This document shows, in pieces, positions 37,874-54,993 of a stretch of 64,000 nt of DNA. Origin of the DNA: Candidatus Omnitrophota bacterium. GTDB taxonomy: Bacteria; Omnitrophota; Gorgyraeia; JAHJTE01. Both the position numbers and the translations under genes were made by a program. Where the stretch lies: assembly GCA_018830005.1 (NCBI GenBank), contig JAHJTE010000002.1, positions 139,809 to 203,808 on the forward strand, given 5' to 3'. The notes beneath the pieces were generated by a model. The model did not search any database and was not told where the DNA came from. It saw only the letters and a program-made list of their open reading frames with translations. The stretch's first letter is position 1. Each line of letters opens with the position of its first letter.

Positions 37874-37947
37874 TGGAGCGGGCAACGGGGCTCGAACCCG
37901 TGTAGGCGGCTTGGAAGGCCGCTGCACTACCACTGTGCTATGCCCGC
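37874..37947 (-). tRNA. tRNA-Gly (anticodon TCC), CCA encoded
   Basis: Acceptor GCGGGCA/TGCCCGC, D-stem GCAC/GTGC, anticodon stem GCGGC/GCCGC with loop CUUCCAA, T-stem ACGGG/CCCGT with loop TTCGAGC. 74 nt. Confidence 0.9.
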
Positions 37948-38007: not shown

Positions 38008-38092
38008 TGGTGGGCAGGGCAGGATTTGAACCTGCGAAGCTATGCGCAACAGATTTACAGTCTGTCCCCTTTGACCACTTGGGTACCTGCCC
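38008..38092 (-). tRNA. tRNA-Tyr (anticodon GTA), long variable arm, CCA encoded
   Basis: Acceptor GGGCAGG/CCTGCCC, anticodon stem ACAGA/TCTGT with loop CUGUAAA, long variable arm, T-stem GCAGG/CCTGC. 85 nt. Confidence 0.85.
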
Positions 38093-38101
38093 ATAAAGTT
38101 A

Positions 38102-38174
38102 AGCTGGCGAGAGGAATCGAACCCCCGACGTCCTCATTACAAGTGAGGTGCTCTACCAACTGAGCTACGCCAGC
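38102..38174 (-). tRNA. tRNA-Thr (anticodon TGT); integration target, 5' half shared with the attR repeat
   Basis: Acceptor GCTGGCG/CGCCAGC, D-stem GCTC/GAGC, anticodon stem CCTCA/TGAGG with loop CUUGUAA, T-loop TTCGATT. 73 nt. Confidence 0.85.
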
Positions 38175-38175
38175 A
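38137..38175. repeat. attL: 39-bp direct repeat covering the anticodon loop through the 5' end of tRNA-Thr
   Basis: ttacaagtgaggtgctctaccaactgagctacgccagca is identical to 46381..46419. Confidence 0.85.
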
Positions 38176-38197
38176 AAATATCATAACTTATTTTCTT

Positions 38198-39259
38198 TCA
38201 ATGAACTACAACAACAGACTTTTCTTCCGATTTCTTAACAATAGCCTCTGGTGACCAAATAGTGTCCATTCGCTTGCTTAAAACGTCCACTGCACGCTTC
38301 TTATGGTCAGGCGAAAGGTGACTATATCTAAGGGTCATTTTAAGGGATTTGTGTCCTAGAAGCTCTCTAACAGTATTTAAATCGACTCCTGACATAACAA
38401 GATGTGAGGCAAAGCTATGCCGTAAATCGTGGAAACGGAAGTTAATTATACCTGCTTTCCTCATTGCTGTAAAGAATGATTTTCTTACATTACCATAAGG
38501 TTCACCCTTATCATTACAAAAGACATATGGACTCTCAGAATGTTTCTTTGTTCTAATAAGAGCGGTCTTAACTTTTTCATTCATAGGTATTTCTCTCTTA
38601 TCTCCATTCTTAGTATTAAGTAGGTGAATTATCCCTCGCCTAAAATCGCAGTCCTGCCATTTAAGATTAAGTATCTCACCCCTACGCATCCCAGTGTTTA
38701 AAGCTACGATAACAATCGGTTTTAGATGTTTACTACATTTTGCCAGCAATTTAATTATTTCCTCTTTCTCAAGATAGCGAAGTCTCTTGTTATTCTCCTT
38801 AAAAAGTTTTACTTTAAGCACAGGATTATCTCTTGCCTTTCCCCACTCAATAGCACGATTATACATAGACTTAAAACAAGCAAGAGCTCTATTAACTGTT
38901 GCTGGTGAAACTTCCTTTATTCTTTTTGCCTTGTATCTCTCAACATCTTGGGGCGTTACCTCATAAAGATATTTGCCTGCAAAATACTTTTTTAGATTCT
39001 GGATAATGATAAGGTCTGATTTCTGCCAAGACCTGTTGTTTGGTTTACTATGAAGCTCTAAATATTCATTAGCAAAATCCTCAAACTTAATCTTTAATTC
39101 TTTTCGGACATCTAGATGTTTATTCTCAGCTACCTCTACTAGTCTTTTCTTGAGGACTTGCTCTGCTAAGACTTTACTAGAAGATATCTTCTGTCTAATA
39201 CGCTTACCGTTAGCGTAGTAATCAATCCACCAATTACCTTTTTTAAGATAGACAGCCAT
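38198..39259 (-). CDS. int: Tyrosine-type site-specific recombinase (phage integrase family)
   Basis: C-terminal catalytic box HDLRHSFASHLVMSGVDLNTVRELLGHKSLKMTLRYSHL with the R..H..R..Y residues; N-terminal SAM-like domain. Confidence 0.9.
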   Translation of the reverse strand: MAVYLKKGNWWIDYYANGKRIRQKISSSKVLAEQVLKKRLVEVAENKHLDVRKELKIKFEDFANEYLELHSKPNNRSWQKSDLIIIQNLKKYFAGKYLYEVTPQDVERYKAKRIKEVSPATVNRALACFKSMYNRAIEWGKARDNPVLKVKLFKENNKRLRYLEKEEIIKLLAKCSKHLKPIVIVALNTGMRRGEILNLKWQDCDFRRGIIHLLNTKNGDKREIPMNEKVKTALIRTKKHSESPYVFCNDKGEPYGNVRKSFFTAMRKAGIINFRFHDLRHSFASHLVMSGVDLNTVRELLGHKSLKMTLRYSHLSPDHKKRAVDVLSKRMDTIWSPEAIVKKSEEKSVVVVH

Positions 39260-39281
39260 TACTCCCCCCTAAACTGCTATG

Positions 39282-40487
39282 TTACTCCAAAAGTTTTTCT
39301 GATAGACCTTTCATTACTACATAAGGTTGTAATAAAGGATTTTTAAATCTATACCTGTATCTTCTCTTTCCTCCAGTTTTGACTAAAGTAAACCCTCTTT
39401 TTTCTGAACAAAAATCTGATAGATGGCGATTAAAGGTGGCAATGTTCACTTTATGCTTTACGATTCTTTCCAAAGGTTCACGTACATCAGCAGGAGCAAA
39501 ATAACCTAACTCATCTACTTGACATAACGCACAAGCAAACAATACTTGTTTAAATAAAGTATCTTTCCTTGGACTTGTAGTAGCTTTGGTATAAGCATTT
39601 ATAATAATTTGTTGAGCATCATTTATGGCATCATTTATACCTTCAAATAAATCTGTATCAGTGATATTCAAGCGTTGAGATTGCAAAGCTTTCCTTGTAG
39701 CTGCCAAACCAACTAAATGCGTATAATGTGGGAGCCCTTGAGATAAACGTACTATCTCCTGCTTTACTTTAGGATCAATCGACATTTTAAGTTCTTGAAC
39801 TGCTGAATTAATTATTCCACTTAGTTCATCTGACTTCATTCTGGGCATCAAAATTTGTACCAATGACCTATCAATAGATGCGTGTTCCTTCACTAATTCT
39901 TCGATGCTATCAGCTACACCGATTAAAATAATCGTAACATCTATTGAGTAATCAGAAAGCATCTTAATTGTGTCTGCAAGCAACGCCGTTACTTTACCCT
40001 TTTTGATTCTATCAAACTCATCAAATATAAAGACAAAACTTATGTCTTTTATTTGTTGGAGCTTACGAATATCTTCAATTTTTATTCCGTTTTCTTTTAC
40101 CACCAAATCTTTTAAAGAAACAAGCGTTTCTTTGCTTTGCTGACTAAAGCCAATACTTGGCTCCTCCATTATAAGAGATACATTATTTAAGGTTTTGCTC
40201 CATAAAGACGAAAAACTATCAGAAATATCACAATTGACTCTTGAGCAAAGTATCTTATGTTTAGCTAAAGGTTCAAGAACTTCCTGTAGAATATTTGCCA
40301 ATGAAGTTTTCCCAACTCCTCTTTCTCCATAAATGACGCTATGTTGACCTCTGGCAAAGATTAAATCAATAACACGATCCAATTGATAATCTCTTCCAGA
40401 GAATAGACTCCTTTTATCTATTGGGGTTGAAGGACTAAAGAAGCGACCAGCATAAAAAGATTTTTGTTTATAATCAATTCCTTCCAT
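39282..40487 (-). CDS. AAA+ / P-loop ATPase (Arch_ATPase/AAA_16-like; possible Orc1/Cdc6-like initiator or defence NTPase)
   Basis: FSGRDYQLDRV ... Walker A GERGVGKTSLA, Walker B FIFDEFDRI. 401 aa, and the C-terminal part is possibly a winged helix. Confidence 0.6.
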   Translation of the reverse strand: MEGIDYKQKSFYAGRFFSPSTPIDKRSLFSGRDYQLDRVIDLIFARGQHSVIYGERGVGKTSLANILQEVLEPLAKHKILCSRVNCDISDSFSSLWSKTLNNVSLIMEEPSIGFSQQSKETLVSLKDLVVKENGIKIEDIRKLQQIKDISFVFIFDEFDRIKKGKVTALLADTIKMLSDYSIDVTIILIGVADSIEELVKEHASIDRSLVQILMPRMKSDELSGIINSAVQELKMSIDPKVKQEIVRLSQGLPHYTHLVGLAATRKALQSQRLNITDTDLFEGINDAINDAQQIIINAYTKATTSPRKDTLFKQVLFACALCQVDELGYFAPADVREPLERIVKHKVNIATFNRHLSDFCSEKRGFTLVKTGGKRRYRYRFKNPLLQPYVVMKGLSEKLLE

Positions 40488-40584
40488 ATAAATACCTCAC
40501 TTTTAATACTAACAATGACTAATTACTATTTATTGTTACTGACTACAATTATACATGATTTTGCCGTTACGTCAAGTATTATTT

Positions 40585-40767
40585 TTAGGTTAATGGTTTT
40601 ATCCCTTTCTTATTTACCCAAGTATCTATTTCCCTAAGGTCAAATCTTAAGGCACCATGGAACTTATGGCAAGGGATTTTTCTATGGCAGACCCAGTTGT
40701 AAAGTGTCTTTACTGCTACACCCAAATACTGAGATAAGTCCTTAATTCCTACGAAACGTCTTTCCAT
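40585..40767 (-). CDS. xis: AlpA-family excisionase / phage transcriptional regulator (HTH)
   Basis: 60 aa; IKDLSQYLGVAVKTLYNWVCHRKIP..F is typical of AlpA/Xis DNA-binding proteins next to integrases. Confidence 0.75.
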   Translation of the reverse strand: MERRFVGIKDLSQYLGVAVKTLYNWVCHRKIPCHKFHGALRFDLREIDTWVNKKGIKPLT

Positions 40768-41000
40768 TCTAAATGCTCAAATTTCTATTTTGCCCCTAAA
40801 GTCTACTTATTAAGCTCCCTTTACTCCTAAAATTCACCTTTTTCCCGTATAATTGCTGCTAGTTTTTCCTCTTTTTCAAGGCTAAATATTAACCTTTTAA
40901 GTTCAAATGTCTCAAAAAAATTAACCTTTTTACACTTAAATCTCAGTATTTTTCAGTAAAATAACATACTTGAACACCCTTGAACAACCTTTTTCCTTAA

Positions 41001-41073
41001 CATTTCTTAGCATTTCTTAGTATTTCTTAGTAATATGTCAACATTTGTCAATAATATGTTAGCATTTGTTAGC
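41001..41073. repeat. Iteron-like array: about 7 imperfect 10-11-bp direct repeats in an AT-rich intergenic region (putative origin)
   Basis: catttcttag / catttcttag / tatttcttag / taatatgtcaa / catttgtcaa / taatatgttag / catttgttagc. Confidence 0.65.
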
Positions 41074-41171
41074 TTAAATGCTTACTTTTGCTCACTCAAC
41101 TCTACTTTAGGGCTGTAATATTGTATAAGCAATGTCCCTAATCTTCATATGTTCCATAGAAAAACCATTTC

Positions 41172-41363
41172 TCAACTATCTCTTTTTTGCGTAGGAATTG
41201 AAAATTTCCCACCAATGCCTGATCTCTTTGGATTTTTCCCAAAACGATACATAAACAAAGCACAATCTGTAATCTCGCAGCTTCTGACCTCTGAAGGCTG
41301 CCCTGCTGAACAATCAAGACATTTTGCTCTTATGGCCTTTATTGGAGTTAAGCGCTTCATCAT
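41172..41363 (-). CDS. Small Zn-ribbon protein (C4-type)
   Basis: 63 aa with CLDC-x13-C-x4-C spacing. Overlaps the upstream ORF by 50 bp. Confidence 0.45.
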   Translation of the reverse strand: MMKRLTPIKAIRAKCLDCSAGQPSEVRSCEITDCALFMYRFGKNPKRSGIGGKFSIPTQKRDS

Positions 41364-41889
41364 CTATTTCCTCCAAAATTTTATCTATCAACTTCCCGTC
41401 ATAGCCTCTATCCACATAGAAACTCCTTGCTTTTTTACTGCCACTAACCTTAATAATACCTCTCACCCCTTCCTTAATCTCCTTTTCTGAGGAAAATTGA
41501 TTATCAATATACTTTATTTCTTTATTTATTTCTTTATTTGGGGTAACATTTTGTTGCCCTATACTTGACATTTTGTTATCCTTAGAAGAATTTTTGTTAG
41601 CCTTTCTTTGCTGAATAAAGGATAACAATTTATTAGGCTGTACTAATATCCAATATTTTGTAGCCTCGGTCTTCCATCTCCCCCTAGTACATTTAATAAG
41701 ACCTATCTCCAGCAAATCCGCCACCTGTCTACCTATTGTTGCTTCACAAGCAAACTCTTCCTCAGCTAGCCTTTTATCATCATAGTAAAATGAGCCGTCA
41801 GACTCTAGCATCCTTTTTCTACAAAAGTATTTATATTTGCTAGCTAAATTATAAAATAATGATTTAAGGGGCTGTCTCATTCTTTTCAT
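41314..41889 (-). CDS. Hypothetical winged-helix protein, possible replication initiator of the element
   Basis: The N-terminal region has wH/HTH character (EATIGRQVADLLEIGLIKCTRGRW) and the C-terminus is K/E-rich. Lies beside the iterons. Confidence 0.4.
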   Translation of the reverse strand: MKRMRQPLKSLFYNLASKYKYFCRKRMLESDGSFYYDDKRLAEEEFACEATIGRQVADLLEIGLIKCTRGRWKTEATKYWILVQPNKLLSFIQQRKANKNSSKDNKMSSIGQQNVTPNKEINKEIKYIDNQFSSEKEIKEGVRGIIKVSGSKKARSFYVDRGYDGKLIDKILEEIDDEALNSNKGHKSKMS

Positions 41890-42181
41890 TTTCTTTCACC
41901 ACTTTTTCCATCAATTCTTCGTATTTCTGAAATATAGCTTTGTTAATTATTTCTGCGGTTTCTCGGTTAATAGGATAAAAAATGTTGATCTCTTTGCCAT
42001 TGGGCAATACTTTAATGGGATATAGCAAACGGTAGCCTTCGCCATTTGGACGTGAGTAAATTGCGATTGAATTTAGAGAGATAGAATCATTGATTACACA
42101 GGAAGCAAAGCCCAAAAGGCCTTTCTCGGTAGGTTTAACTGGTATGACGACTGATTCGGTAATTACGATTTCGCTCATCAT
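41864..42181 (-). CDS. spoVG: SpoVG-family nucleic-acid-binding protein
   Basis: Pattern match across the SpoVG core: GLLGFASCVINDSISLNSIAIYSRPNGEGYRLLYPIKVLPNGKEINIFYPINRETAEIINKAIFQKYEE versus B. subtilis ..[65 protein letters not shown]. Confidence 0.7.
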   Translation of the reverse strand: MMSEIVITESVVIPVKPTEKGLLGFASCVINDSISLNSIAIYSRPNGEGYRLLYPIKVLPNGKEINIFYPINRETAEIINKAIFQKYEELMEKVVKENEKNETAP

Positions 42182-42325
42182 CTCCTATCCTCAATAAACA
42201 AGAAGCTGTTGCAGACCTATTCAATCTGAACAGCTATAGTATACATTATTATCTATTTAACGTCAGTGGACGTGCTAAAAGAGCTTATTTTTCTATGGAG
42301 ATGCTATAGAGTTGGCTAGATTTCT

Positions 42326-43306
42326 TCAGCCAATTTTAAGGGGAGGCAAACCAAAAAGAACACCTTTATCAGGGGGAGGCATATTCAATTGAGCTATCTG
42401 CTCACTCATTCTTTTTATAGCTTTCTTGATTACATCTTGGAGGGGAGAAATACCTGTAGAAATCAATTTACCTTTTCTTCCTTCTTGCTTACCAGTTAGA
42501 TAATGCTGTTTTGCCTCTGTAAAATCTGCTTTATATTTGTCAGAAAGAAAACCATTTACTATCTCTTCATGTAATTGATGATCATCCAAAACCTTTCCTT
42601 GTAAATCCTCTTTTTTAATCGTGTCTTTGATTCTTCTGGTAATCAGAATATCAATATCCCGCATATGAAATCTCTTTTCTATTTCAGCAATCTTTTTTAT
42701 TGAAAATCCTTTTTTCTCCACATCATACCATCTCAAATCTCGTTCAAAATTGCCCTTACCTTCTATTTTGGATAAATAATACTTCTGCAATCTTTCGACA
42801 TCCTTCCATTTTTTTCTAATATCTTCTAAAGTAGCCCATTTTGTAATTGTAATTGAAATGCTATCCCTGCCTTTTCTAGGGTCTTGATCGAGATGTATTT
42901 CTACTGGTTCTCTTATAAACTTCCACAAATTGCTAAGATTGCATTCCCATCCTTCTCCTATACACCATCTATCACAAAATTCAAACCAAGAATCCCTAAA
43001 GCGCTCAAAGACTGACTGTAATTCATATAAATCATTACTGTTCCTTAAAGGCTTAAGGGCTTTTTTTCTAAGGTCATTACACTTATTGCAATAATCTTTC
43101 GCTTCTTTAACTAATTCTGGATATTTATTAACTTTGAAAAAACGAAGCACCTGCCTAGAAGGATCATGTCTGTTCCCAATTTTATCTAGTTTTTTGGCTA
43201 GCGGAAAATACTTCCTGCCTATTCTTTTCATAATTGCATTAAGTTCTTTATTAAACATCTCATTTCTTATAAGCAATTGAATTCTTTGAGTTTTCTTTTT
43301 CTCCAC
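42326..43306 (-). CDS. Hypothetical protein (326 aa, K/E/R-rich, no recognisable domain)
   Basis: Long ORF with codon usage like its neighbours. No motif recognised. Confidence 0.5.
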   Translation of the reverse strand: MEKKKTQRIQLLIRNEMFNKELNAIMKRIGRKYFPLAKKLDKIGNRHDPSRQVLRFFKVNKYPELVKEAKDYCNKCNDLRKKALKPLRNSNDLYELQSVFERFRDSWFEFCDRWCIGEGWECNLSNLWKFIREPVEIHLDQDPRKGRDSISITITKWATLEDIRKKWKDVERLQKYYLSKIEGKGNFERDLRWYDVEKKGFSIKKIAEIEKRFHMRDIDILITRRIKDTIKKEDLQGKVLDDHQLHEEIVNGFLSDKYKADFTEAKQHYLTGKQEGRKGKLISTGISPLQDVIKKAIKRMSEQIAQLNMPPPDKGVLFGLPPLKIG

Positions 43307-43329
43307 TTCTTCCTCACATCTTTAAAATT

Positions 43330-43911
43330 TCAAGTATCGCTGTCAGATGATTCCTTAGTATGTTGTGGTATTTTATTCAGATTAGCTAATTCTCTTAATG
43401 CTTTTAACATATCTTTTGCAGTTCGTCTAACCGCAGCTACCGCAGCCTGATGTTCACTCCATCCCATCAATAGCCCGCTTGGCTTATGACTTACGGAAAC
43501 TATCTGTCCAGTTTTTGTATCAATCATTTTTACTGTAGCAAAAGCATTCAGAGTTAACCCGTTATTATATGAAGTTATGTTACCTAACAGTACCACTTCA
43601 GCATTAACCGATTCTCCAATTTTTTGTGCTTCAAGAATAGTAATAGCGTTATTGACATCGTTTTTTACGCCTATTTTAGTAATTGCAAACTGAATTGTTG
43701 AAGGCTCAACAAGTACGAAATCATCTTGCTCTAAAAGGTGGAGATTTAGTGTGTCTGTGGCTACTTGAGTAAATCGCATGTCTCCTGAAAAAGGTAAAAC
43801 CGCAATTTTTGACCAATTATTCGGAATAAACTTACTATTTCTTCTAAAATAAGAAGGATTAGCGCATCCAACCAAACCCAAACATAACAAGACAACAAGA
43901 ATCTTCTTCAT
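43330..43911 (-). CDS. Lipoprotein (possibly CsgG/LpoB-like fold)
   Basis: Signal peptide MKKILVVLLCLGLVGCA with lipobox; IAVLPFSGD ... segment resembles the (V/I)AVLPF motif of CsgG/LpoB-like lipoproteins. Confidence 0.5.
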   Translation of the reverse strand: MKKILVVLLCLGLVGCANPSYFRRNSKFIPNNWSKIAVLPFSGDMRFTQVATDTLNLHLLEQDDFVLVEPSTIQFAITKIGVKNDVNNAITILEAQKIGESVNAEVVLLGNITSYNNGLTLNAFATVKMIDTKTGQIVSVSHKPSGLLMGWSEHQAAVAAVRRTAKDMLKALRELANLNKIPQHTKESSDSDT

Positions 43912-43948
43912 CTCTCACCTCATCCTTATTTCATATTTTCTGATATTC

Positions 43949-44299
43949 TCATCTGCGTATCTCTATCACAGTATCCGCTTCTTTTTTTAATCTTGGCCGC
44001 TTCAGCTCTAGGTCATCTGCATCAAGACACATAAAATGAACTTCTGCTTTTGGAAAATTAGTTAGTATATACGGTGGCTTGGCCTCGCTGATATGAATTA
44101 CCTGAAAGTGCTTTCCTTGATTTTCACAAAATTCGTTAGCCTCTTGTAATGCTTTAGCCTTGAGTTTCCCCGAACCAGAAAAACCCGTAGCCGCTTGACG
44201 AGAGACCATAAAAGTGTCTTGCCCCATTGGAACCACGCCTGAATTTATCGCACACCCAACCAATCCTAAACACAATAAGACAATTAAAATCTTTTTCAT
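43949..44299 (-). CDS. Small lipoprotein
   Basis: Signal peptide MKKILIVLLCLGLVGCA is almost identical to that of the upstream lipoprotein. The mature part is unrelated. Confidence 0.5.
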   Translation of the reverse strand: MKKILIVLLCLGLVGCAINSGVVPMGQDTFMVSRQAATGFSGSGKLKAKALQEANEFCENQGKHFQVIHISEAKPPYILTNFPKAEVHFMCLDADDLELKRPRLKKEADTVIEIRR

Positions 44300-44334
44300 A
44301 TCTTACCCCCAAGCAACTATTAATTGTTTTTTAT

Positions 44335-44751
44335 TCATTTTCTATTAGCATTTGGCTTAACAAAAAACTTTGAACGATGCATAGCCCAAATAACAAGCGG
44401 GAACGCAGCTAAAAGAGAAGTTGTCCTTTCTGCAAGGTAAGGTTTAGATATTAAAACTGCAATTAAACTCGCAGGAATCATTAAAAAGGCGTGTATAATC
44501 CAAATTCCAATTATCCAAAATATGCGTTTGGGAATACTCCAACCTCGGTCAGTGCAAGCAGCCAAAATAGCAAAAATCAACATTATCAATATGGTAAATC
44601 CAGACTCGTGACTGTAAGAACCTCCACTTCGTGCAATTATCCCAGCGCCAACAGTGCTTATCAACCAAAAGACAATTAAACCTAACCACCAGCGTTTTGG
44701 TTTCCATTTCCAATTTGTTTTATTACTTTTTTCCATCGCCCCGCCAACCAT
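44335..44751 (-). CDS. Hypothetical membrane protein (3-4 TM)
   Basis: Hydrophobic segments; basic N-terminus. Confidence 0.45.
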   Translation of the reverse strand: MVGGAMEKSNKTNWKWKPKRWWLGLIVFWLISTVGAGIIARSGGSYSHESGFTILIMLIFAILAACTDRGWSIPKRIFWIIGIWIIHAFLMIPASLIAVLISKPYLAERTTSLLAAFPLVIWAMHRSKFFVKPNANRK

Positions 44752-44814
44752 TAATTGCTTTCTATGTAACGCTTCTCCTTAAAATCAACTTCGCTTTTGG
44801 TATATACTACAAAG

Positions 44815-45090
44815 TTACCCCTTAAGTTCCCTAATACATCTCTTTAGATTTGCAGTCATCAATTTAATGATGGGGAAATACAATGGGATAAGTAAAGGCA
44901 AAGCAATAATACAAGCTCCATTCAATACAATGTCTGAATAAGGATTAGGCATCAAGGGATATATAACAAAATATAAGATTGTTACCAAAAGCCACGCAAT
45001 TAATAATGGCACTCCTAACAATAATATATTGATAATAATTTTTAATCCGATAAGGTAAGTTTTAAAAAATTGCCTTTGTTTTTCATCCAT
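44815..45090 (-). CDS. Small hypothetical membrane protein (2-3 TM)
   Basis: 91 aa and highly hydrophobic. Confidence 0.4.
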   Translation of the reverse strand: MDEKQRQFFKTYLIGLKIIINILLLGVPLLIAWLLVTILYFVIYPLMPNPYSDIVLNGACIIALPLLIPLYFPIIKLMTANLKRCIRELKG

Positions 45091-45237
45091 AATAACCTCG
45101 CATCCTCTAAAATAAGAAAAAACTAACAGCTTAACATTGGCCTAAGATTAGTATACTTTGCCCCATAACCACTCCTTTGTGGTGGGTATGCTATTACACA
45201 CTGGAAGGTTATTTTAGCTCTGTTCAATTATTGTGTC

Positions 45238-45264
45238 AAACAAAAACCCCAGCTCATCACTGGG
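45238..45264 (-). terminator. Putative rho-independent terminator downstream of the PIN gene
   Basis: On the minus strand, stem CCCAG/CTGGG with a 7-nt loop is followed by TTTTTGTTT. Confidence 0.4.
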
Positions 45265-45296
45265 TGTTCTTTAGTTAAAATAATGGGGGGTCTTTT

Positions 45297-45854
45297 TTAG
45301 CTAGGCTTGAGTCTGTCTGGAAAAGTTTGGTAATTATTCGGATCTAATACAGCTATACTCAATCTCTCGGCAACTTTAGCCATTGCCAAATCGCATGTTA
45401 CAAGAAAAAAATCTTTATGTCTCTTCTTAAAATTTGCTGCCATTCCTACTATCAAAACATCTATACAACTAAGGAAGTCTCTTTCTTCATTATATTCTAA
45501 ATATATATCTCTTGCATGATCAAATATTTCATACGTTTTTATAATATCCTTACGTGTTATAGAACATATATTATATTTTCGTTTTTCAAGATCATATGTA
45601 AAATTGGTTTTCATCGTTAAAAATTTATCATCATTTATACGTTTACTTTTATCTGTATATCTCTTAGTGTAAAATACCAAAAACGTTTCAGTAATACAGA
45701 TGTCTGGCAAAAATAAAGAGAGCCTATTAGCTCTCTTTTTATCTTTTTTGTGGCTCTCTATCCAAAATGTAACTGCTTTTGTTCCAGTCGGCTCCTTATT
45801 GTAATACTTTACAAAGGCACTCGTATCAAAGAATAATTCATCATTTCTTTTCAT
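45297..45854 (-). CDS. PIN-domain protein (VapC-like toxin)
   Basis: N-terminal FFDTSAFVKYY PIN motif with the conserved Asp, and a further acidic residue near the C-terminus (TCDLAMA). Confidence 0.6.
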   Translation of the reverse strand: MKRNDELFFDTSAFVKYYNKEPTGTKAVTFWIESHKKDKKRANRLSLFLPDICITETFLVFYTKRYTDKSKRINDDKFLTMKTNFTYDLEKRKYNICSITRKDIIKTYEIFDHARDIYLEYNEERDFLSCIDVLIVGMAANFKKRHKDFFLVTCDLAMAKVAERLSIAVLDPNNYQTFPDRLKPS

Positions 45855-46044
45855 CCCCGTTCCTTCGTAACTTAATTACAGTGCCTGATAAATTAAGATT
45901 GCCTGTTTTCTTCAGCAATTCATCGTGCGCACAAACATATTTCTTTAAGTCCTTGGGAACGCAAAAACCTTTCTCGTCAACAAAGATGCTTTTAATAGTC
46001 TGAAATAATTTAACCATAATTTTCTTCTCCCTCATTATACCCAC
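45841..46044 (-). CDS. Putative antitoxin partner of the PIN toxin (small upstream ORF overlapping by 14 bp)
   Basis: 67 aa. Has the classic overlapping antitoxin-toxin arrangement, with an inverted repeat in its promoter region. Confidence 0.45.
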   Translation of the reverse strand: MGIMREKKIMVKLFQTIKSIFVDEKGFCVPKDLKKYVCAHDELLKKTGNLNLSGTVIKLRRNGDEKK

Positions 46045-46045
46045 T

Positions 46046-46074
46046 TATAGAGTATAGCATATTTTACCTCTATA
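46046..46074. promoter_or_regulatory. Inverted repeat TATAGAG-N15-CTCTATA upstream of the putative TA operon (candidate operator/promoter)
   Basis: Seen directly in sequence; overlaps -10-like TATA-rich sequence. Confidence 0.4.
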
Positions 46075-46380
46075 TACCAATCACTGTCAAGCTTTTCAAA
46101 TTTTGCTATTCGCACCAAAGATACCCCCTATTTATTATATCTATATCAAAAGCGATAAGGTGTACTCCTCAATTTGATTTTACCCATAAGACTCAATATA
46201 TACATACCCAAGGGGGTGCCTTTGGGACGCCTAGGGGGTTGGTGTCCAAATAGTGTCCATCTGATGGGGAAAAATGGGGTAATTCGGGGAAGAGCAGAGA
46301 CTAAAATATTTTATGTAAGTGGTTGGGAGTTAATATATTTAATTGAATTTCAAGAGGTTAGGAAAAATACTTCTATCGCT

Positions 46381-46419
46381 TTACAAGTGAGGTGCTCTAC
46401 CAACTGAGCTACGCCAGCA
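46381..46419. repeat. attR: displaced 5' half of tRNA-Thr (39-bp direct repeat, pseudo-tRNA fragment)
   Basis: Identical to 38137..38175. The flanking sequence is not tRNA-like on the element side. Confidence 0.85.
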
Positions 46420-46425
46420 TTTAAA

Positions 46426-47325
46426 TTATTGACTACTTTTTTTTATTGCCTCAGGGATTCTTTCAATTAAATCCGAGGCGATTAAACTCAACTCGCCACT
46501 TTCCCTTGCTGCTAAATCGCCTGCTAGGCCATGGATATATGTCGCATACTTAGCCGCAGAATAAACATCCAAACCTTGGGCTAGGAAAGAAGCAACAATG
46601 CCTGTAAGTACGTCTCCACATCCAGCTGTTGCCATACCTGGATTTCCTGTAGTATTAATATAAACCTTGCCGGAGAAATCAGCAACAATACTTCGATAAC
46701 CTTTCAAGATAAGCGTCAGACCAAATTCTTTTGAGAATTTAGAAGCAACTTCTTTTCTGTGGCCCTGGACATAAGAGGTGGACTTGGCAATAAGTCTGGC
46801 CATCTCTCCTGGATGGGGTGTTAAGACTAAATTCCTATTGAGTCTTTTTTTTGCCCTTAGTTTTAATACCTTTAAATTTGCAGCCAAGGCATTTATTGCA
46901 TCAGCATCAATAACCATCTTCAGTTTACAATGAGCAATAATACTGCGAACTAATTTTTGTGTCGATAGATTTAATGATAATCCGGGACCTATTGCCAGAA
47001 CGTCTACCTTCTTTAGAAAATTATTTATTTTTGGTAAGGCCTTAATACTGGCTGACTGAGAGCTTGTCTGGGCCAAAGGCAGGGTCATTACTTCAACTAA
47101 TTGCTTCTGGAATATATTATTAAGGCTTTTTGGTATGCCTAGCGTAACTAATCCAGCTCCTGTTCTCAGACTTGAGCGCGCTGTGAGTATTGCAGCTCCC
47201 GTCAATCCGGCTGAACCACATAAGGCAAATATGTGTCCGTAATTTCCCTTATGTGAATTGGGCTTTCTTTTCGATAACTGCGCTGGCAACTGCATAATTT
47301 TCCGTATGGGAAATAGAGATTGCAA
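46426..47325 (-). CDS. nnrD: ADP-dependent NAD(P)H-hydrate dehydratase (YjeF C-terminal domain)
   Basis: GNPGMATAGCGDVLTG motif of the carbohydrate-kinase-like YjeF_C family. The true start is probably downstream of 47325, since it overlaps acpS. Confidence 0.8.
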   Translation of the reverse strand: MQSLFPIRKIMQLPAQLSKRKPNSHKGNYGHIFALCGSAGLTGAAILTARSSLRTGAGLVTLGIPKSLNNIFQKQLVEVMTLPLAQTSSQSASIKALPKINNFLKKVDVLAIGPGLSLNLSTQKLVRSIIAHCKLKMVIDADAINALAANLKVLKLRAKKRLNRNLVLTPHPGEMARLIAKSTSYVQGHRKEVASKFSKEFGLTLILKGYRSIVADFSGKVYINTTGNPGMATAGCGDVLTGIVASFLAQGLDVYSAAKYATYIHGLAGDLAARESGELSLIASDLIERIPEAIKKSSQ

Positions 47326-48459: not shown

Positions 48460-49224
48460 TCATATTTTATTTCTCTTTATTAATAAATTCTTTAGTGTCT
48501 TATCTAATTTCTCAACATCAAGATTCTGCTCCAATCTGCCGTTAAGCGCTGAAGATACAACTCCTTTATTTTCAGAGACAACAATTACGACAGCATCGGT
48601 CTCTTCGGTTAAACCAATGGCAGCACGATGTCTTGTGCCTAGTGTAGGAGAAAGTCCTGGCTGTTGCGTTAAGGGAAAAAGACAAGAAGCAGCAATAATC
48701 CTGTTACCACTGATAACCACACCGCCATCGTGAAGTGGGGCGCCAGGAACAAAAATACTATTAAGTAATTCAGCGCTAATCATACTATCTAGGCGAATCC
48801 CGCTTTCTACAAATGTTTTTAATTTATGGTGTCTCTCTAAAGCAATGATTGCTCCAACATTCTCATAAGAAAACCTACGAATAGCCTTAATCAGCTCTTT
48901 AATCATCTCCTCTACCTCTTCTTCTTTTGGCGGCAAATGAAAGAGATGATGTTGTCCTAAGTGAGCAAGGCCTTGACGTAATTCTGGCTGAAACAAAATG
49001 ATCGTACCTATCAACCAAAATGCAAATAACTTAGTAAGCAACCATTCGATAGTAAGCAATCCAAGTCTTTGAGAAACAAAAAAGGCAATAATAAGAATAA
49101 TTATTCCTCTCAAGACATGGACAGCTCGCGTACCCTCAAAGAAAATAAGCATCCTGTAGAATATGAACCAAAGAATGCTGATTTCCAATATCGGGCGCCA
49201 CAATAAATTAACGTATTCTAACAT
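48460..49224 (-). CDS. cdaA: Diadenylate cyclase (membrane-anchored CdaA/DacA)
   Basis: Three N-terminal TM helices; DAC domain motifs DGGVVI and RHRAAIG. Confidence 0.85.
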   Translation of the reverse strand: MLEYVNLLWRPILEISILWFIFYRMLIFFEGTRAVHVLRGIIILIIAFFVSQRLGLLTIEWLLTKLFAFWLIGTIILFQPELRQGLAHLGQHHLFHLPPKEEEVEEMIKELIKAIRRFSYENVGAIIALERHHKLKTFVESGIRLDSMISAELLNSIFVPGAPLHDGGVVISGNRIIAASCLFPLTQQPGLSPTLGTRHRAAIGLTEETDAVVIVVSENKGVVSSALNGRLEQNLDVEKLDKTLKNLLIKRNKI

Positions 49225-52096: not shown

Positions 52097-53092
52097 TCAA
52101 TACTTTCTTGTATATAGCCTTAGTCTGTCTTTGTCTTTTCTGACTGAAAGACTCTTTGGTAAATCCACAATTGAGCCTTCTATTCTATTAAGAAGCAAAT
52201 CCTCAATCTCGCGCCAATGCCGATAATCAAACTTACGAGTTGTGCCTAGAATTCTCTCTATGCATAAACGCAGTACCATTCTCTGCATAGAGATATGTAA
52301 TTTAGATAACTTTTTTAAATCCAAAGAAAGTCTCTTTCCTCTGTTAGAAATAAGAACCCGCTTCATCTGTCTTCTGGCAACATCAGTTAGATATTCATAA
52401 TCAAAAGAGATAACCTCAGAAAGATTTGCCAAAGACAAACGAGTACTTTTATTAAAATCAGATTCCAAAAACGGAATAAGTCTATTGCGAATTCTATTTC
52501 TAAAGAATTTAGGGTCTAGATTAGAGGCATCAAGGCAGGCCTTAACTTTTATACGCTTAAGATAAGAATCTATATCCTTCCTTAAAATCTCAATTAACGG
52601 CCTGACAAAGAACAATTCCCCAATCAATCTAACAGGACGGATTGCCCCCAGCCCATAAAGTCCGCTACCGCGGATAATGCGCATCAGCACCGTCTCTGCC
52701 TGATCATCTCTATTATGACCCAGGGCAATCTTATTAAGAGAATATTTCCTAGCAATATCTCTGAAAAATTTATGACGCGTATTACGGCTAACCTCCTCCA
52801 AAGAACCTTTTTTCCTAAAAGAGACGACATTAACACTTTTACAATAACAGGGAATATTTAATTTTTTTGCGATTTGTTTTACAAATTCCATATCGCGCTC
52901 AGCCTCACTCCTGCGCAACATATGATTTAGATGGGCAATATACAAAGTTATTTTGAGTTCTTTTTTTAAAGAATTCAATACGTAAATAAGAGCAACAGAA
53001 TCCGGACCGCCCGATACCCCAACCAGGACCTTATCCTGCTTTTTAAACATTTTAAATCTCTTTATTGTTGTCCTGACTTTATTTAACATCAT
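52097..53092 (-). CDS. tilS: tRNA(Ile)-lysidine synthetase
   Basis: PP-loop SGGPDS (VLVGVSGGPDSVAL); 331 aa. Confidence 0.85.
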   Translation of the reverse strand: MMLNKVRTTIKRFKMFKKQDKVLVGVSGGPDSVALIYVLNSLKKELKITLYIAHLNHMLRRSEAERDMEFVKQIAKKLNIPCYCKSVNVVSFRKKGSLEEVSRNTRHKFFRDIARKYSLNKIALGHNRDDQAETVLMRIIRGSGLYGLGAIRPVRLIGELFFVRPLIEILRKDIDSYLKRIKVKACLDASNLDPKFFRNRIRNRLIPFLESDFNKSTRLSLANLSEVISFDYEYLTDVARRQMKRVLISNRGKRLSLDLKKLSKLHISMQRMVLRLCIERILGTTRKFDYRHWREIEDLLLNRIEGSIVDLPKSLSVRKDKDRLRLYTRKY

Positions 53093-53987
53093 ATCTTAAG
53101 AAATTATAACCTTTGATTATACTATCACAAATCATCTGGACTAAATTGGAGAATTCTCCCATATCGCCTCTGCCCAAAGCAAAGTAGTATTTATAACGAT
53201 CTTCTATCTTTATAATCGCAGGTGGATAACCCTTGGATAATAACTGCGTAATAAGAATCAACCTTCCCACCCTTCCATTACCATCAAAAAAAGGATGGAT
53301 ACTTTCAAATTCGTAATGGTCACTTGCTACCTTACCAATAACATCCTTGCCATATTTATTGACCTTGGACACAAACTTTTTCATCCTCACAGGAACCATT
53401 TGCGCGGATGGAAGCGCTTTTTCTGTATTAATAAGATTAACAAATCCTGTTCTGTATTTTCCGGGAAGTTTATCGTTAAAATTATACATAACTATTGAAT
53501 GAAGCTTTAATATGTAGTCTTCATTAATCTTAAAGCTTGGCTTTATTGCATCCAGCAGAAAATTTAAAGCGTTATTATGATTTACTGCCTCTAAGACCTC
53601 AAAAAGCTCTTTTCCCCTTACCTTTCCTCCCTTAATCGCGGTTTCTGTCTCTTTAAGGCTCATGCGACTTCCCTCAATTGCATTGGAATGATAGGTCATC
53701 TCCAGAAAAAACCTTTCCTTCAAGGCCTTATTATTCCTTAGAATTTTTATAGGCTGGCTTAAATCATGCTTTAATTTTACAACCAACTCCCTTAAATCAA
53801 TGTGTTCCTTAAATAATTCATCGATTCTTCGGGATTGGCCAGGATGTGGGTTAATACCCTTATCCAGCCAGCGATAAACTGTCTTATAGCTGACTTCAAC
53901 AAGCTTAGCCAATTGAGACCGAGACATCCTGGTCTCTTCTAAGATTCGCCTTAATTTCTGCCTATCTTCAATAATAACCTTTTTCAT
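53079..53987 (-). CDS. fic: Fic-family protein (AMPylation/Fido domain) with N-terminal HTH
   Basis: Canonical Fic motif HPFFDGNGRVGR; N-terminal HTH (MSRSQLAKLVEVSYKTVYRWL). Confidence 0.85.
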   Translation of the reverse strand: MKKVIIEDRQKLRRILEETRMSRSQLAKLVEVSYKTVYRWLDKGINPHPGQSRRIDELFKEHIDLRELVVKLKHDLSQPIKILRNNKALKERFFLEMTYHSNAIEGSRMSLKETETAIKGGKVRGKELFEVLEAVNHNNALNFLLDAIKPSFKINEDYILKLHSIVMYNFNDKLPGKYRTGFVNLINTEKALPSAQMVPVRMKKFVSKVNKYGKDVIGKVASDHYEFESIHPFFDGNGRVGRLILITQLLSKGYPPAIIKIEDRYKYYFALGRGDMGEFSNLVQMICDSIIKGYNFLRYDVK

Positions 53988-54000
53988 CTTTATTTAAAAT

Positions 54001-54026
54001 AATAATAGGACATATGTCCTATTATT
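54001..54026. promoter_or_regulatory. Perfect 26-bp palindrome AATAATAGGACATATGTCCTATTATT upstream of fic (candidate operator), with a related half-site at 54045..54060
   Basis: Seen directly; lies 14 bp upstream of the fic start codon. Confidence 0.6.
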
Positions 54027-54073
54027 ATACCTAACAAAATTATACCATATGTCCTAATGGAATACAAGCCCTG

Positions 54074-54150
54074 TTTTTTATTTTGGTGGCGGGGGAGAGA
54101 TTTAAACTCTCGGCCAATCGGGTATGAGCCGACTGCTCTATCAGGCTGAG
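54074..54150 (-). tRNA. tRNA with anticodon CAT (elongator Met or Ile2/lysidine type), CCA encoded; non-canonical A19:U56
   Basis: Acceptor GGCGGGG/CCCCGCC, D-stem GCTC/GAGC with D-loop AGCCTGATA, anticodon stem GTCGG/CCGAT with loop CUCAUAC, T-stem GAGAG/CTCTC with loop TTTAAAT. 77 nt. Confidence 0.75.
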
Positions 54151-54174
54151 CTACCCCGCCATTGTTGGCTATAT

Positions 54175-54993
54175 TTACTTCTTCCGGTATGCGCTCAAGA
54201 AGGAATCGCAGTATATATGTTTATTGAGCAGTAGATCAGAGGTTATTACTGCATCCATGAGTTCCTTATCTAAAGGATCAACGATAGCTGCATCCAGGCC
54301 GTAACCAATTGCCATAGTTAGAAAAACCCTGTTTATAATATTCCTCTGGCAGCTACCCTGGCTAACATTACTTAAACCCACAACTGTCTTGGGAGCAGGA
54401 TCGGAAATCACCTTAAATTCATGCAAAACCTCTAAAATCATTTTAAGCTGGGGTTGAGCAACATTGACCGGTAAAACTATTGGATCTAGATATATGTTAT
54501 TAATATTAAAATCTTTCTCTTGTGCAAAGGCTAGTATCTGTGCTGCCAATTCTAAACGCCTGTCCTTATCTTGCGGTACTCCTTTTTTGTCCATTGTAAG
54601 GGCAATTAAAGAGGCATTGTACTTCTTGGCCATGTTTACATAAATTTCAAGACGCTCTGGGTCTGCGCTTGTGGAATTAATAATCGCCTTACCCTTTATG
54701 AGCTCAAGACCTGCCTGAATAACATTTGGCTTAGTACTATCAATGGCAAGCGGCAAATTAGAGCCCTTCTGAATAGCGCTCACTAACCACTTCATATCAC
54801 TAACCGGATCCTTGGATAACGGTCCGCAGTTAACATCAAGGGCATTAGCGCCTTCTGCCTCTTGCTGTTTAGCCAAATTAATAATAGCCTGCTCATCCTT
54901 TTTCGAAAGTGCCTCTTGCACGTTTTTATACATTCCGTTGATTAATTCACCAATTATAAACATAGCCCTATTTCTCCATAAGTTTGTCAACAA
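54175..54993 (-). CDS. acsE: Methyltetrahydrofolate:corrinoid/iron-sulfur protein methyltransferase (MeTr)
   Basis: Pterin-binding domain matching the Moorella AcsE pattern (IIGELINGM..., DPAPKTVVGLSNVSQG, YCDSFL). Confidence 0.8.
   Translation of the reverse strand: MLTNLWRNRAMFIIGELINGMYKNVQEALSKKDEQAIINLAKQQEAEGANALDVNCGPLSKDPVSDMKWLVSAIQKGSNLPLAIDSTKPNVIQAGLELIKGKAIINSTSADPERLEIYVNMAKKYNASLIALTMDKKGVPQDKDRRLELAAQILAFAQEKDFNINNIYLDPIVLPVNVAQPQLKMILEVLHEFKVISDPAPKTVVGLSNVSQGSCQRNIINRVFLTMAIGYGLDAAIVDPLDKELMDAVITSDLLLNKHIYCDSFLSAYRKK

What the first reader, a model, noticed from the sequence alone, without database searches (positions are those of the whole stretch)
38137..46419. An ~8.2-kb integrated element in tRNA-Thr(TGT), bounded by perfect 39-bp direct repeats
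The 39-nt string ttacaagtgaggtgctctaccaactgagctacgccagca occurs twice. One copy is the 5' half of an intact tRNA-Thr next to a tyrosine integrase. The other copy sits 8.2 kb away directly downstream of nnr, where housekeeping genes resume. Between the copies are int, an AAA+ ATPase, an AlpA-type xis, iterons, a replication-like wH protein, a Zn-ribbon protein, a SpoVG homologue, lipoprotein/membrane cargo and a PIN toxin-antitoxin pair. This is a complete and apparently uncharacterised integrative, possibly replicative, element.
Basis: seen in the sequence. Interest (0 to 1): 0.75.

Follow-up and report, generated by a model that had tools for sequence, protein, structure and literature searches.

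The report
Mobile element inserted backwards into tRNA
An 8.2-kb mobile DNA element sits in a threonine tRNA gene of an uncultivated Omnitrophota bacterium and replaces the front (5') half of the gene instead of the usual back half; it belongs to a large family of elements, for which I found no description, that do the same.

Summary
A perfect 39-bp direct repeat (38137-38175 and 46381-46419) brackets 8,244 bp. The stretch has low GC (34.6% against 38.6-41.3% elsewhere) and carries a lambda-type tyrosine integrase, an HTH_17 excisionase-like gene, a winged-helix Rep-like gene beside 10-bp phased repeats, SpoVG, lipoproteins and a PIN pair.

Six Omnitrophota relatives have nnr followed within about 30 nt by tRNA-Thr(TGT). 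That is the empty-site arrangement.

The repeat is tRNA positions 0-38, the 5' half through the anticodon loop. The integrase stop codon lies 23 nt upstream of the tRNA's 5' end. This reversed polarity is known but rare (159 of 3,919 Islander islands).

About 20 loci with integrases 43-74% identical show the same layout at 12 different tRNA isoacceptors. Five further elements are delimited by 5'-half repeats, one of them imperfect.

They share an attP plan, with TGGAC-repeat motifs at about -75 and +120. In most, IHF-like sites also flank the core. A sigma-70-like promoter inside int, 270 nt upstream of the tRNA, is conserved in the closer relatives.

The element is real and is a new member of a known minority kind. 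No excision or strain-level empty site was seen. Replication, promoter function and transfer mode are inferred.

The parts
38102..38174 (-). Intact, recombinant tRNA-Thr(TGT). It is the first gene of a Thr-Tyr-Gly tRNA cluster (Tyr 38008-38092, Gly 37874-37947).
   Evidence: ARAGORN; Rfam tRNA 69.2 bits
38137..38175 (-). Integrase-proximal copy of the 39-bp direct repeat. It covers tRNA positions 0-38 and ends at the last base of the anticodon loop.
38195..38209 (-). Motif B, P-arm copy (GTAGTTCATTGAAAG), spanning the int stop codon. In relatives this position is a perfect match to the IHF consensus (WATCAANNNNTTR) on the opposite strand. It is degenerate in this element.
   Evidence: the IHF consensus is from established knowledge
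38198..39259 (-). Tyrosine integrase, 353 aa, with lambda-Int-like three-domain architecture. The stop codon is 23 nt before tRNA position 1.
   Evidence: Pfam PF00589 1.2e-36; R192-K217-H277-R280-H303-Y312 are invariant or near-invariant in 33 homologues; the model has a beta3-alpha N-domain; the best fold match is full-length lambda Int 1z1b, 336 columns
38249..38269 (-). Motif A, P-arm copy (ATGGACACTATTTGGTCACCA), inside the int 3' end, 75 bp before the tRNA start. A further TGGAC lies at 38285-38289. These are candidate arm-type Int binding sites.
   Evidence: strongest synonymous-site conservation in the whole int gene
38445..38473 (-). Sigma-70-like promoter (TTTACA-17-TATAAT) inside the int ORF, 271 nt upstream of tRNA-Thr. 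It is a candidate element-supplied promoter for the tRNA cluster.
39282..40487 (-). AAA/STAND-type ATPase, 401 aa, variable accessory gene. A promoter-like site (TTGACG-16-TATAAT) lies at 40548-40575.
40585..40767 (-). HTH_17 (excisionase/AlpA-type) DNA-binding protein, 60 aa. It is conserved next to int in 8 of the 13 compared elements (9 of 10 in which the int ORF was captured).
   Evidence: Pfam PF12728 3.3e-11; TIGR01764 excise domain below its cut-off; phrog_66; family F1
40963..41073 (.). Iteron-like tract of 10-bp-phased tandem repeats in the 400-bp intergenic region.
41172..41363 (-). 63-aa Zn-ribbon protein (CxxC-x11-CxxxxC), shared with elements L088 and L093.
   Evidence: read; family F6
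41314..41889 (-). 191-aa winged-helix protein, a candidate replication initiator.
41864..42181 (-). SpoVG-family protein, 105 aa, conserved in related elements (44% identical to the L082 copy).
42326..45090 (-). Variable cargo: an orphan 326-aa protein, two lipoproteins (193 aa LpoB/FlgO-like and 116 aa) and two small membrane proteins.
45297..46044 (-). PIN-domain protein (185 aa) overlapping an upstream 67-aa ORF, a putative toxin-antitoxin pair. A promoter-like site lies at 46061-46090.
   Evidence: Pfam PIN 25.3 bits against a 23.6 cut-off
46240..46260 (-). Motif A, P'-arm copy (ATGGACACTATTTGGACACCA, two TGGACAC repeats 11 bp apart), 124 bp inside the distal repeat.
46348..46360 (+). Motif B, P'-arm copy. 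It is IHF-like (TTTCAAGAGGTTA, 1 mismatch to WATCAANNNNTTR), 21 bp inside the distal repeat, at the same place as in four relatives.
46381..46419 (-). Distal copy of the 39-bp repeat. It is the displaced, orphan 5' half of the tRNA and starts 6 nt after the nnr stop codon.
46426..47325 (-). Host nnr (NAD(P)H-hydrate dehydratase), the conserved upstream neighbour of tRNA-Thr(TGT) in relatives.

Best explanation
This is a site-specifically integrated mobile element of 8,244 bp. A lambda-type (arm-binding) tyrosine integrase inserted it into the tRNA-Thr(TGT) gene that heads a Thr-Tyr-Gly tRNA cluster just downstream of nnr in an Omnitrophota genome. It has reversed polarity. The element's attP carries the 5' half of the tRNA (positions 1-38) instead of the usual 3' part. 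After recombination the working tRNA is therefore element 5' half plus host 3' half, and the host's original 5' half is left stranded next to nnr.

Inferred steps:
- Strand exchange occurs in the 7-nt anticodon loop, at the 3' edge of the identity block.
- The intasome is built on TGGAC-repeat arm sites about 75 bp left and 120 bp right of the tRNA segment, with IHF-like bend sites in between.
- The HTH_17 protein acts as the directionality factor.
- Integration cuts the tRNA cluster off from its native upstream promoter, so the element supplies a new one. The best candidate is the conserved TTTACA-17-TATAAT inside the int ORF, 271 nt upstream. Read-through of the ATPase-int operon is the alternative.
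- After excision the winged-helix protein and the neighbouring 10-bp repeats may support plasmid-like replication.
- The PIN pair may stabilise the element.

No transfer genes were recognised, so spread presumably needs a helper.
For: Shown:
- There is a perfect 39-bp repeat equal to tRNA positions 0-38.
- The orphan copy is not a tRNA.
- Six relatives show nnr then tRNA-Thr(TGT) synteny.
- The element's GC of 34.6% is outside the host range.
- The integrase is intact, with conserved catalytic residues and a lambda-Int-like N-domain.
- About 20 loci with integrases 43-74% identical have a co-oriented tRNA starting within about 80 nt after int. In the closest relatives the gap is 22-23 nt. Twelve isoacceptors are used.
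- Five further elements of 5.6-10.6 kb are bounded by 5'-half repeats that end at tRNA positions 38-43.
- All six delimited elements carry motif A 118-124 bp inside the distal repeat. Five of them, including this one, carry a second copy 73-75 bp before the tRNA.
- Motif A is the most synonymously constrained stretch of int. None of 2,000 permutations reached its score.
- IHF-like sites sit at fixed positions on both sides of the core in four relatives. This element has only the distal one.
- The int-embedded promoter-like motif lies at -269 to -271 in 13 loci. It keeps 5-6 of 6 matches in each hexamer while neighbouring synonymous sites vary.
- No terminator-like hairpin lies between that motif and the tRNA.
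Against: - No strain-level empty site exists. The nearest nnr is only 54% identical.
- No circular attP or attB junction was seen. The element is on record from a single read set plus MAG assemblies.
- The crossover position is inferred from the edge of the repeat only.
- The synonymous-constraint support for the promoter is suggestive, not decisive. Its two windows rank 2nd and 4th of 197. Their scores of 0.40 and 0.31 are reached by the permutation maximum in 8% and 58% of trials.
- Promoter-like hits in the region are no more frequent than chance overall.
- Sigma-70 rules may not apply in Omnitrophota.
- The Rep assignment rests on a generic winged-helix fold and E-values of about 1e-5. The protein shows no BLASTP similarity to the Rep_O proteins of related elements.
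- This element's own P-arm motif B is degenerate.
Confidence: 0.8

Rival explanations
1. It is a phage satellite (PICI-like or tycheposon-like): an integrated parasite that excises, replicates and is packaged by a helper phage.
For: It is small (8.2 kb), has an int, HTH_17 and Rep-like module, lacks any conjugation or capsid genes, and carries variable cargo.
Against: No primase, helicase, terminase small subunit or capsid-remodelling gene was recognised by Pfam, PHROGs or NCBIfam. The integrase found no relative in IMG/VR viral contigs. No helper is known.
Confidence: 0.15
2. It is a decayed, immobile remnant: an old island fixed in this lineage and no longer able to excise.
For: It was seen in one genome or sample only. 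No excised form was seen. The element's P-arm motifs are slightly degenerate: GGTCACC in place of GGACACC, and a weak motif B.
Against: The two repeat copies are 39/39 identical. The int and HTH_17 ORFs are intact and the catalytic residues are conserved. The GC content has not ameliorated.
Confidence: 0.1
3. It is an assembly artefact: a free circular element carrying a tRNA half was joined into the chromosome through the shared 39 bp.
For: The source is a metagenome-assembled genome. The k=31 Logan unitigs break exactly inside the repeat.
Against: Unitig breaks at a 39-bp repeat are expected at k=31. Contigs of 50-200 kb and 403 kb carry both int and the downstream host gene. Five other assemblies from other samples show the same integrated layout.
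Confidence: 0.03
4. The int-embedded promoter-like motif is only a by-product of the conserved protein motif SFFTA..K.GIINFRFH and AT-rich codon usage. Under this reading the tRNA cluster is transcribed by read-through from the ATPase-int operon or from an unrecognised promoter.
For: The hexamers are encoded by conserved residues. The permutation test is not significant for the -10 window alone. A promoter-like site (11 of 12 matches) precedes the ATPase-int operon, and no terminator follows int.
Against: Gly is GGT in 9 of 10 sequences, and Phe-Thr is TTT-ACA or Leu-Thr is TTG-ACC, while adjacent Ala, Ser, Asn, Arg and Phe codons vary freely. When residues change (W, L, D) both hexamers still keep at least 5 of 6 matches.
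Confidence: 0.35

Closest known systems
Genomic islands with a displaced 5' tDNA fragment, i.e. reversed target-gene orientation (Zhao & Williams 2002, J Bacteriol 184:859; 159 of 3,919 islands in the Islander database)
   Same: A tyrosine-integrase element lies upstream of the tRNA. The direct repeat is the 5' part of the gene. The tRNA is regenerated from an element-borne 5' fragment, so the element has to replace the promoter.
   Different: The host phylum is uncultivated Omnitrophota. Here the polarity is a property of a whole integrase clade that uses at least 12 isoacceptors, with a shared attP plan. I could not read the 2002 paper, so a detailed comparison with its element was not possible. 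The frequency figure comes from PMC4383910 and the statement of rarity from PMC6563490.
Anticodon-loop class tRNA integrases (phage HP1, P22 and P4-type; Williams 2002 sublocation scheme)
   Same: The identity block has one edge at the anticodon loop. The integrase's catalytic domain is related to those of HP1 and P2.
   Different: In those systems the identity runs from the loop to the 3' end of the tRNA. Here it runs from the loop to the 5' end. The sublocation scheme is recalled from memory.
Lambda Int / attP intasome (heterobivalent Int, arm sites, IHF bends, Xis)
   Same: The predicted architecture has three domains including a beta3-alpha N-domain, and the best fold match is full-length lambda Int. 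Direct-repeat motifs lie about 100 bp either side of the core, with IHF-consensus sites between them and the core. A small HTH protein is encoded next to int.
   Different: Sequence identity is about 19%. The P-arm sites and a promoter-like motif lie inside the int coding sequence. The target is a tRNA. No binding has been tested.
Small integrative replicative elements with a rep-xis-int-attP module (pSAM2-type AICEs), PICIs and tycheposons
   Same: The module order is Rep-like, xis-like, int, att. The element is small, targets a tRNA and carries variable cargo.
   Different: There is no FtsK-like Tra, relaxase, primase or packaging gene. The polarity is reversed. The Rep assignment is weak. 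The pSAM2 gene order is recalled from memory and was not tested.

Membership tests
tRNA-targeting tyrosine-integrase integrative element (genomic island) | Tyrosine recombinase with the catalytic R-K-H-R-H/W-Y set | tested here: met
   PF00589 at 1.2e-36. R192, K217, H277, R280, H303 and Y312 are invariant or near-invariant in 33 homologues.
tRNA-targeting tyrosine-integrase integrative element (genomic island) | An intact tRNA at one end and a co-oriented fragment of the same tRNA at the other | tested here: met
tRNA-targeting tyrosine-integrase integrative element (genomic island) | Uninterrupted target site in related genomes | tested here: met
   Met at phylum-level synteny only. nnr then tRNA-Thr(TGT) is seen in L002, L004, L005, L006, L007 and L010. 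No close strain was available.
tRNA-targeting tyrosine-integrase integrative element (genomic island) | Excision to a circular form (attP and attB junctions) | not testable with these tools
   No read mapping is available, and no attP-type contig was found among the fetched loci.
Reversed-orientation (5'-fragment) tDNA islands | The displaced fragment is the 5' part and lies upstream of the regenerated tRNA | tested here: met
   The repeat is tRNA positions 0-38, and the orphan copy is 8.2 kb upstream.
Reversed-orientation (5'-fragment) tDNA islands | The element supplies a promoter for the regenerated tRNA | tested here: inconclusive
   A conserved sigma-70-like motif lies in int at -271. The statistics are only suggestive, and there are no transcript data.
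Canonical anticodon-loop-class tRNA integration (Williams 2002) | The identity block extends from the anticodon loop to the 3' end of the tRNA | tested here: not met
   The block extends from the loop to the 5' end.
Lambda-type heterobivalent integrase system | N-terminal arm-binding domain | tested here: met
   The model shows three strands plus a helix at residues 2-44, pLDDT 81-89. The alignment to full-length lambda Int covers 336 columns. This is a fold-level result only.
Lambda-type heterobivalent integrase system | Arm-type sites distinct from core sites on both sides of the core | tested here: inconclusive
   Motif A (TGGAC repeats) lies at conserved distances on both sides in five of the six delimited elements and on the distal side only in the sixth. 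Binding was not tested.
PICI / phage satellite | Packaging or capsid-redirection genes and a primase-replicase | tested here: not met
   No such hits in Pfam, PHROGs or NCBIfam. No IMG/VR relatives.
ICE / IME | Relaxase, oriT, T4SS or coupling protein | tested here: not met
   No such domains in any ORF. oriT cannot be tested.
Iteron-type replicon | Rep initiator plus adjacent iterons | tested here: inconclusive

The most novel reading that the evidence does not exclude
A whole, abundant clade of lambda-type integrases in Omnitrophota and neighbouring groups has inverted the polarity of tRNA targeting. Its elements replace the 5' half and the promoter of host tRNA genes or operons. This would put host tRNA expression under a promoter written into the int coding sequence and place their own co-oriented cargo downstream of the host's tRNA promoter. 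A shared arm-site and IHF scaffold, also partly inside int, would let the clade switch between at least 12 tRNA targets.
Probability: 0.35. Interest if true: 0.65.

Novelty: new member of a known kind. Interest (0 to 1): 0.45.

Why it matters
The usual account of why integrases prefer the 3' ends of tRNA genes is that this avoids separating the gene from its promoter. This clade appears to do the opposite consistently, with a candidate replacement promoter and arm sites embedded in the integrase ORF. That makes it a natural test case for the account. It also offers compact int-attP modules for many tRNA targets in a phylum with no genetic tools. In practice, island finders tuned to 3' tRNA fragments and annotators of Omnitrophota MAGs could miss or mis-bound these elements.

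Tried and rejected
- Exact-sequence look-ups of nnr and of the 326-aa orphan found nothing on record. Look-ups of int and the downstream FMN reductase returned only k=31 unitigs from one read set, which break inside the repeat. No strain-level polymorphism could therefore be examined.
- The integrase has no relative in IMG/VR. Its best match in deposited phages and plasmids is 34% identical, to Pseudomonas phage D3 integrase.
- I looked for a canonical sigma-70 promoter in the 23-nt int-tRNA spacer. One search reports no promoter-like site there, and I rejected the TTGATA and TATAAT-like boxes seen by eye because they are only 10-12 nt apart.
- BLASTP of the 191-aa protein against Rep_O-like proteins of related elements found nothing. 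A profile search against PDB sequences also found nothing.
- PADLOC gave only sub-threshold mad1/mad8-like hits for the HTH and ATPase. I do not call this a defence system.
- The repeat of element L093 turned out to be imperfect, and its orphan copy cannot pair with the present 3' half. I did not use it to map the crossover.
- No distal repeat was found within the available flank for L087, L091, L134, L135 or L137.
- Zhao & Williams 2002 and Williams 2002 are not held in the paper library.

Full report
**Observation**

The 39-nt string occurs exactly twice in the window, at 38137-38175 and 46381-46419. Both copies are on the same strand with no mismatch, and no shuffle reproduces it. The start-to-start spacing is 8,244 bp.

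ARAGORN and Rfam place tRNA-Thr(TGT) at 38102-38174 on the minus strand, followed by tRNA-Tyr and tRNA-Gly. Read on the minus strand, the repeat is one base upstream plus tRNA positions 1-38. That covers the acceptor arm, D arm, 5' anticodon stem and the whole anticodon loop CTTGTAA. After position 38 the proximal copy continues as the tRNA (TGAGG...), while the distal copy continues as unrelated DNA (AGCGATAG...).

The distal copy starts 6 nt after the nnr stop codon. Neither ARAGORN nor Rfam calls it a tRNA.

**Is it an insertion?**

A search with the nnr protein in species-representative genomes found no close relative, with a best identity of 54%. The best hits are mostly Omnitrophota MAGs. 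In six of them (L002, L004, L005, L006, L007, L010) nnr is followed by a co-oriented tRNA-Thr(TGT) about 4-24 nt after the end of the nnr match. In L004, L007 and L010, Tyr and Gly follow. tRNA-Met upstream and tRNA-Pro downstream are also syntenic.

Joining the window's nnr-side half to the int-side remainder recreates this arrangement. The 8.2 kb in between has 34.6% GC. All 158 other 8.2-kb windows in the window lie between 38.6% and 41.3%. GC skew is unchanged, as expected because every gene of the element is co-oriented with its neighbours.

This evidence is at the level of synteny. No strain-level empty site and no circular junction could be examined.

**Gene content**

All genes are on the minus strand. 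In order from the distal repeat towards the tRNA they are:

- a 67-aa ORF overlapping a PIN-domain protein
- two small membrane proteins
- two lipoproteins with near-identical lipobox signal peptides, the larger weakly LpoB/FlgO-like
- an orphan 326-aa protein with a single distant homologue, apart from itself, in 5.8 billion sequences
- a SpoVG-family protein
- a 191-aa protein
- a 63-aa Zn-ribbon protein
- a 400-bp intergenic region with 10-bp-phased tandem repeats at 40963-41073
- a 60-aa HTH_17/excisionase-family protein
- a 401-aa AAA/STAND-type ATPase
- the integrase

No relaxase, T4SS, primase, terminase or capsid gene was recognised.

**The polarity is reversed**

The element lies upstream of the tRNA and carries the tRNA's 5' half. 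The integrase stop codon is 23 nt before tRNA position 1, on the same strand.

[quoted passage not shown] The Islander database counted 3,760 islands with a 3' fragment against 159 with a 5' fragment (PMC4383910). The polarity is therefore a documented minority, not a new kind.

**It is a family trait**

The integrase has thousands of homologues: 7,258 with E of 1e-20 or better among the 8,000 candidates scored. The best 120 are 64-78% identical and are mostly unnamed or labelled Omnitrophota.

I fetched DNA for seven of these homologues and for 41 metagenome loci. Among relatives at least 43% identical with sequence downstream of int, all but one (L101) have a co-oriented tRNA starting immediately after int. 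The gap is 22-23 nt in the closest relatives. In others it is 1-14 nt or up to 78 nt, and in one subclade the int ORF runs into the tRNA.

Twelve isoacceptors are used: Thr-TGT, Ala-GGC, Ala-CGC, Met-CAT, Gln-CTG, Gly-TCC, Arg-ACG, Lys-CTT, Lys-TTT, Leu-CAA, Leu-TAA and Ser-GCT.

In five further loci the other end lies within the fetched flank:

| Locus | Element size (bp) | Repeat (tRNA positions) |
|---|---|---|
| L082 | 5,603 | 1-38 |
| L088 | 10,554 | 0-40 |
| L093 | 6,096 | imperfect repeat |
| L098 | 9,200 | 0-38 |
| L106 | 7,841 | 0-43 |

Each of these is a copy of the tRNA's 5' half lying upstream. Every repeat includes the anticodon loop, and three of the six (with the window) end exactly at its last base. 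The simplest reading, by analogy with 3'-type elements, is that strand exchange occurs in the anticodon loop at the edge of the identity block. This is an inference.

**A shared attP plan**

I reconstructed attP from the two ends of each delimited element. This shows an 18-bp motif, GACACTATTTGGACACCA (two TGGACAC repeats 11 bp apart). It occurs 118-124 bp inside the distal repeat in all six delimited elements. In five of them, including this one, a second copy in direct orientation lies 73-75 bp before the tRNA start, inside the int ORF where it encodes MDTIWTP; L098 lacks this copy. In the window these copies are at 38249-38269 and 46240-46260, identical at 20 of 21 positions. A further TGGAC lies 21 bp upstream in the P arm.

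I aligned 12 integrase genes that are 56-74% identical at the nucleotide level. In this alignment the motif is the most synonymously constrained stretch of the whole gene. Its window score is 0.55, against a mean of 0.087 and SD of 0.10 over 197 windows, and no permutation out of 2,000 reached it.

A second block, TAACTCATTGA(T/A)A, matches the IHF consensus WATCAANNNNTTR on the opposite strand. The consensus is from established knowledge.
- At -33/-34 from the tRNA start the match is perfect in four relatives.
- At +17 to +21 inside the distal repeat it has one mismatch in five elements, including this one at 46348-46360.
- This element's own P-arm copy is degenerate.

The integrase model has a three-stranded sheet plus helix at residues 2-44, separated from the core-binding domain by a flexible linker. 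Its best structural match is full-length lambda Int over 336 columns. An arm-site/bend/core/bend/arm-site intasome is thus a coherent but untested model.

**Who transcribes the tRNA cluster?**

Integration places 8.2 kb between the Thr-Tyr-Gly cluster and whatever lay upstream in nnr. The 23-nt spacer holds no canonical promoter.

The sigma-70 scan flags TTTACA-17-TATAAT at 38473-38445, inside int and 271 nt upstream of the tRNA. It is one of four 11-of-12 matches in the region. The same motif sits at -269 to -271 in 13 loci.

It is encoded by the conserved residues F-(F/L/W)-T and G-I-I:
- Gly is GGT in 9 of 10 sequences, and the hexamers keep 5-6 of 6 matches even where residues change.
- Adjacent Ala, Ser, Asn, Arg and Phe codons vary freely.
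- The two windows rank 2nd and 4th of 197 for synonymous constraint. By the permutation maximum they are only suggestive, at 8% and 58%.

No terminator-like hairpin follows int.

I consider this the best candidate for the replacement promoter, with a probability of about 0.5-0.6. Read-through from the promoter-like site ahead of the ATPase-int operon (40575-40548) is the alternative. In the circular form the same promoter would read across attP into the cargo. Conversely, the host's tRNA promoter would now read through the orphan half-tRNA into the co-oriented cargo. This is not testable here, and the co-orientation may simply follow the strand bias of the whole region.

**Family content**

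An all-against-all comparison of 13 elements gives this picture:
- The int ORF was captured in 10 of the 13. In the other three it runs into the tRNA and was missed by the ORF extraction.
- HTH_17 is found in 9 elements including the window, always just upstream of int.
- SpoVG is found in the window, L082 and L088. A SpoVG gene is also called in L137.
- The Zn-ribbon protein is found in three elements.
- A Rep_O-like protein is found in three elements.
- Everything else is unique cargo.

**Verdict**

It is a new member of a known minority kind, the reversed-polarity tDNA island, and belongs to a large family for which I found no description in the held library. The clade-wide polarity, the arm motif written into the int ORF and the candidate embedded promoter are what make it more than routine.

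Noticed in passing
L002:11481-11733, L005:10287-10577, L021:12680-12957: A group I intron (Rfam RF00028, 88-97 bits) lies between tRNA-Thr(TGT) and tRNA-Gly. This is where tRNA-Tyr sits in the window and in L004, L007 and L010, and ARAGORN calls no tRNA-Tyr in these three loci. They probably have an intron-split tRNA-Tyr gene.
   Followed up: partly
L102-L106 and L111 (e.g. L106:10001-11167): In the subclade that targets tRNA-Lys(TTT), the integrase reading frame has no stop before the tRNA and runs through the whole tRNA gene. The int C-terminal tail would then be encoded by tDNA.
   Followed up: no
L088:2286-3860 and L098:4739-5545: Two delimited relatives carry a second, different tyrosine recombinase gene inside the element. 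These may be nested or composite elements.
   Followed up: no
L135:11298-11316: A 19-nt copy of the 3' end of tRNA-Gln(CTG) lies about 140 nt downstream of the same tRNA that has a reversed-polarity integrase on its 5' side. It looks like a scar of a conventional 3'-side integration at the same gene.
   Followed up: no
window 39282-40767: The HTH_17 protein and the adjacent ATPase give sub-threshold hits to MADS defence components. For MAD1 the NCBIfam score is 55.9 bits against a cut-off of 80, and PADLOC gives mad1 at 3.6e-6 and mad8 at 2.6e-6. This is probably family-level resemblance only.
   Followed up: partly
window 43862-43919 and 44250-44307: The two lipoprotein genes share a 58-nt stretch that is 79% identical and covers their signal peptides. 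This suggests a local duplication of the lipoprotein N-terminus.
   Followed up: no
window 53079-55933: A Fic/DOC-family gene lies just downstream of tRNA-Met (54084-54160). Upstream of it are CdhD and pterin-binding genes, which suggest an acetyl-CoA-pathway corrinoid protein. A DisA-type diadenylate cyclase domain protein lies at 48460-49224.
   Followed up: no
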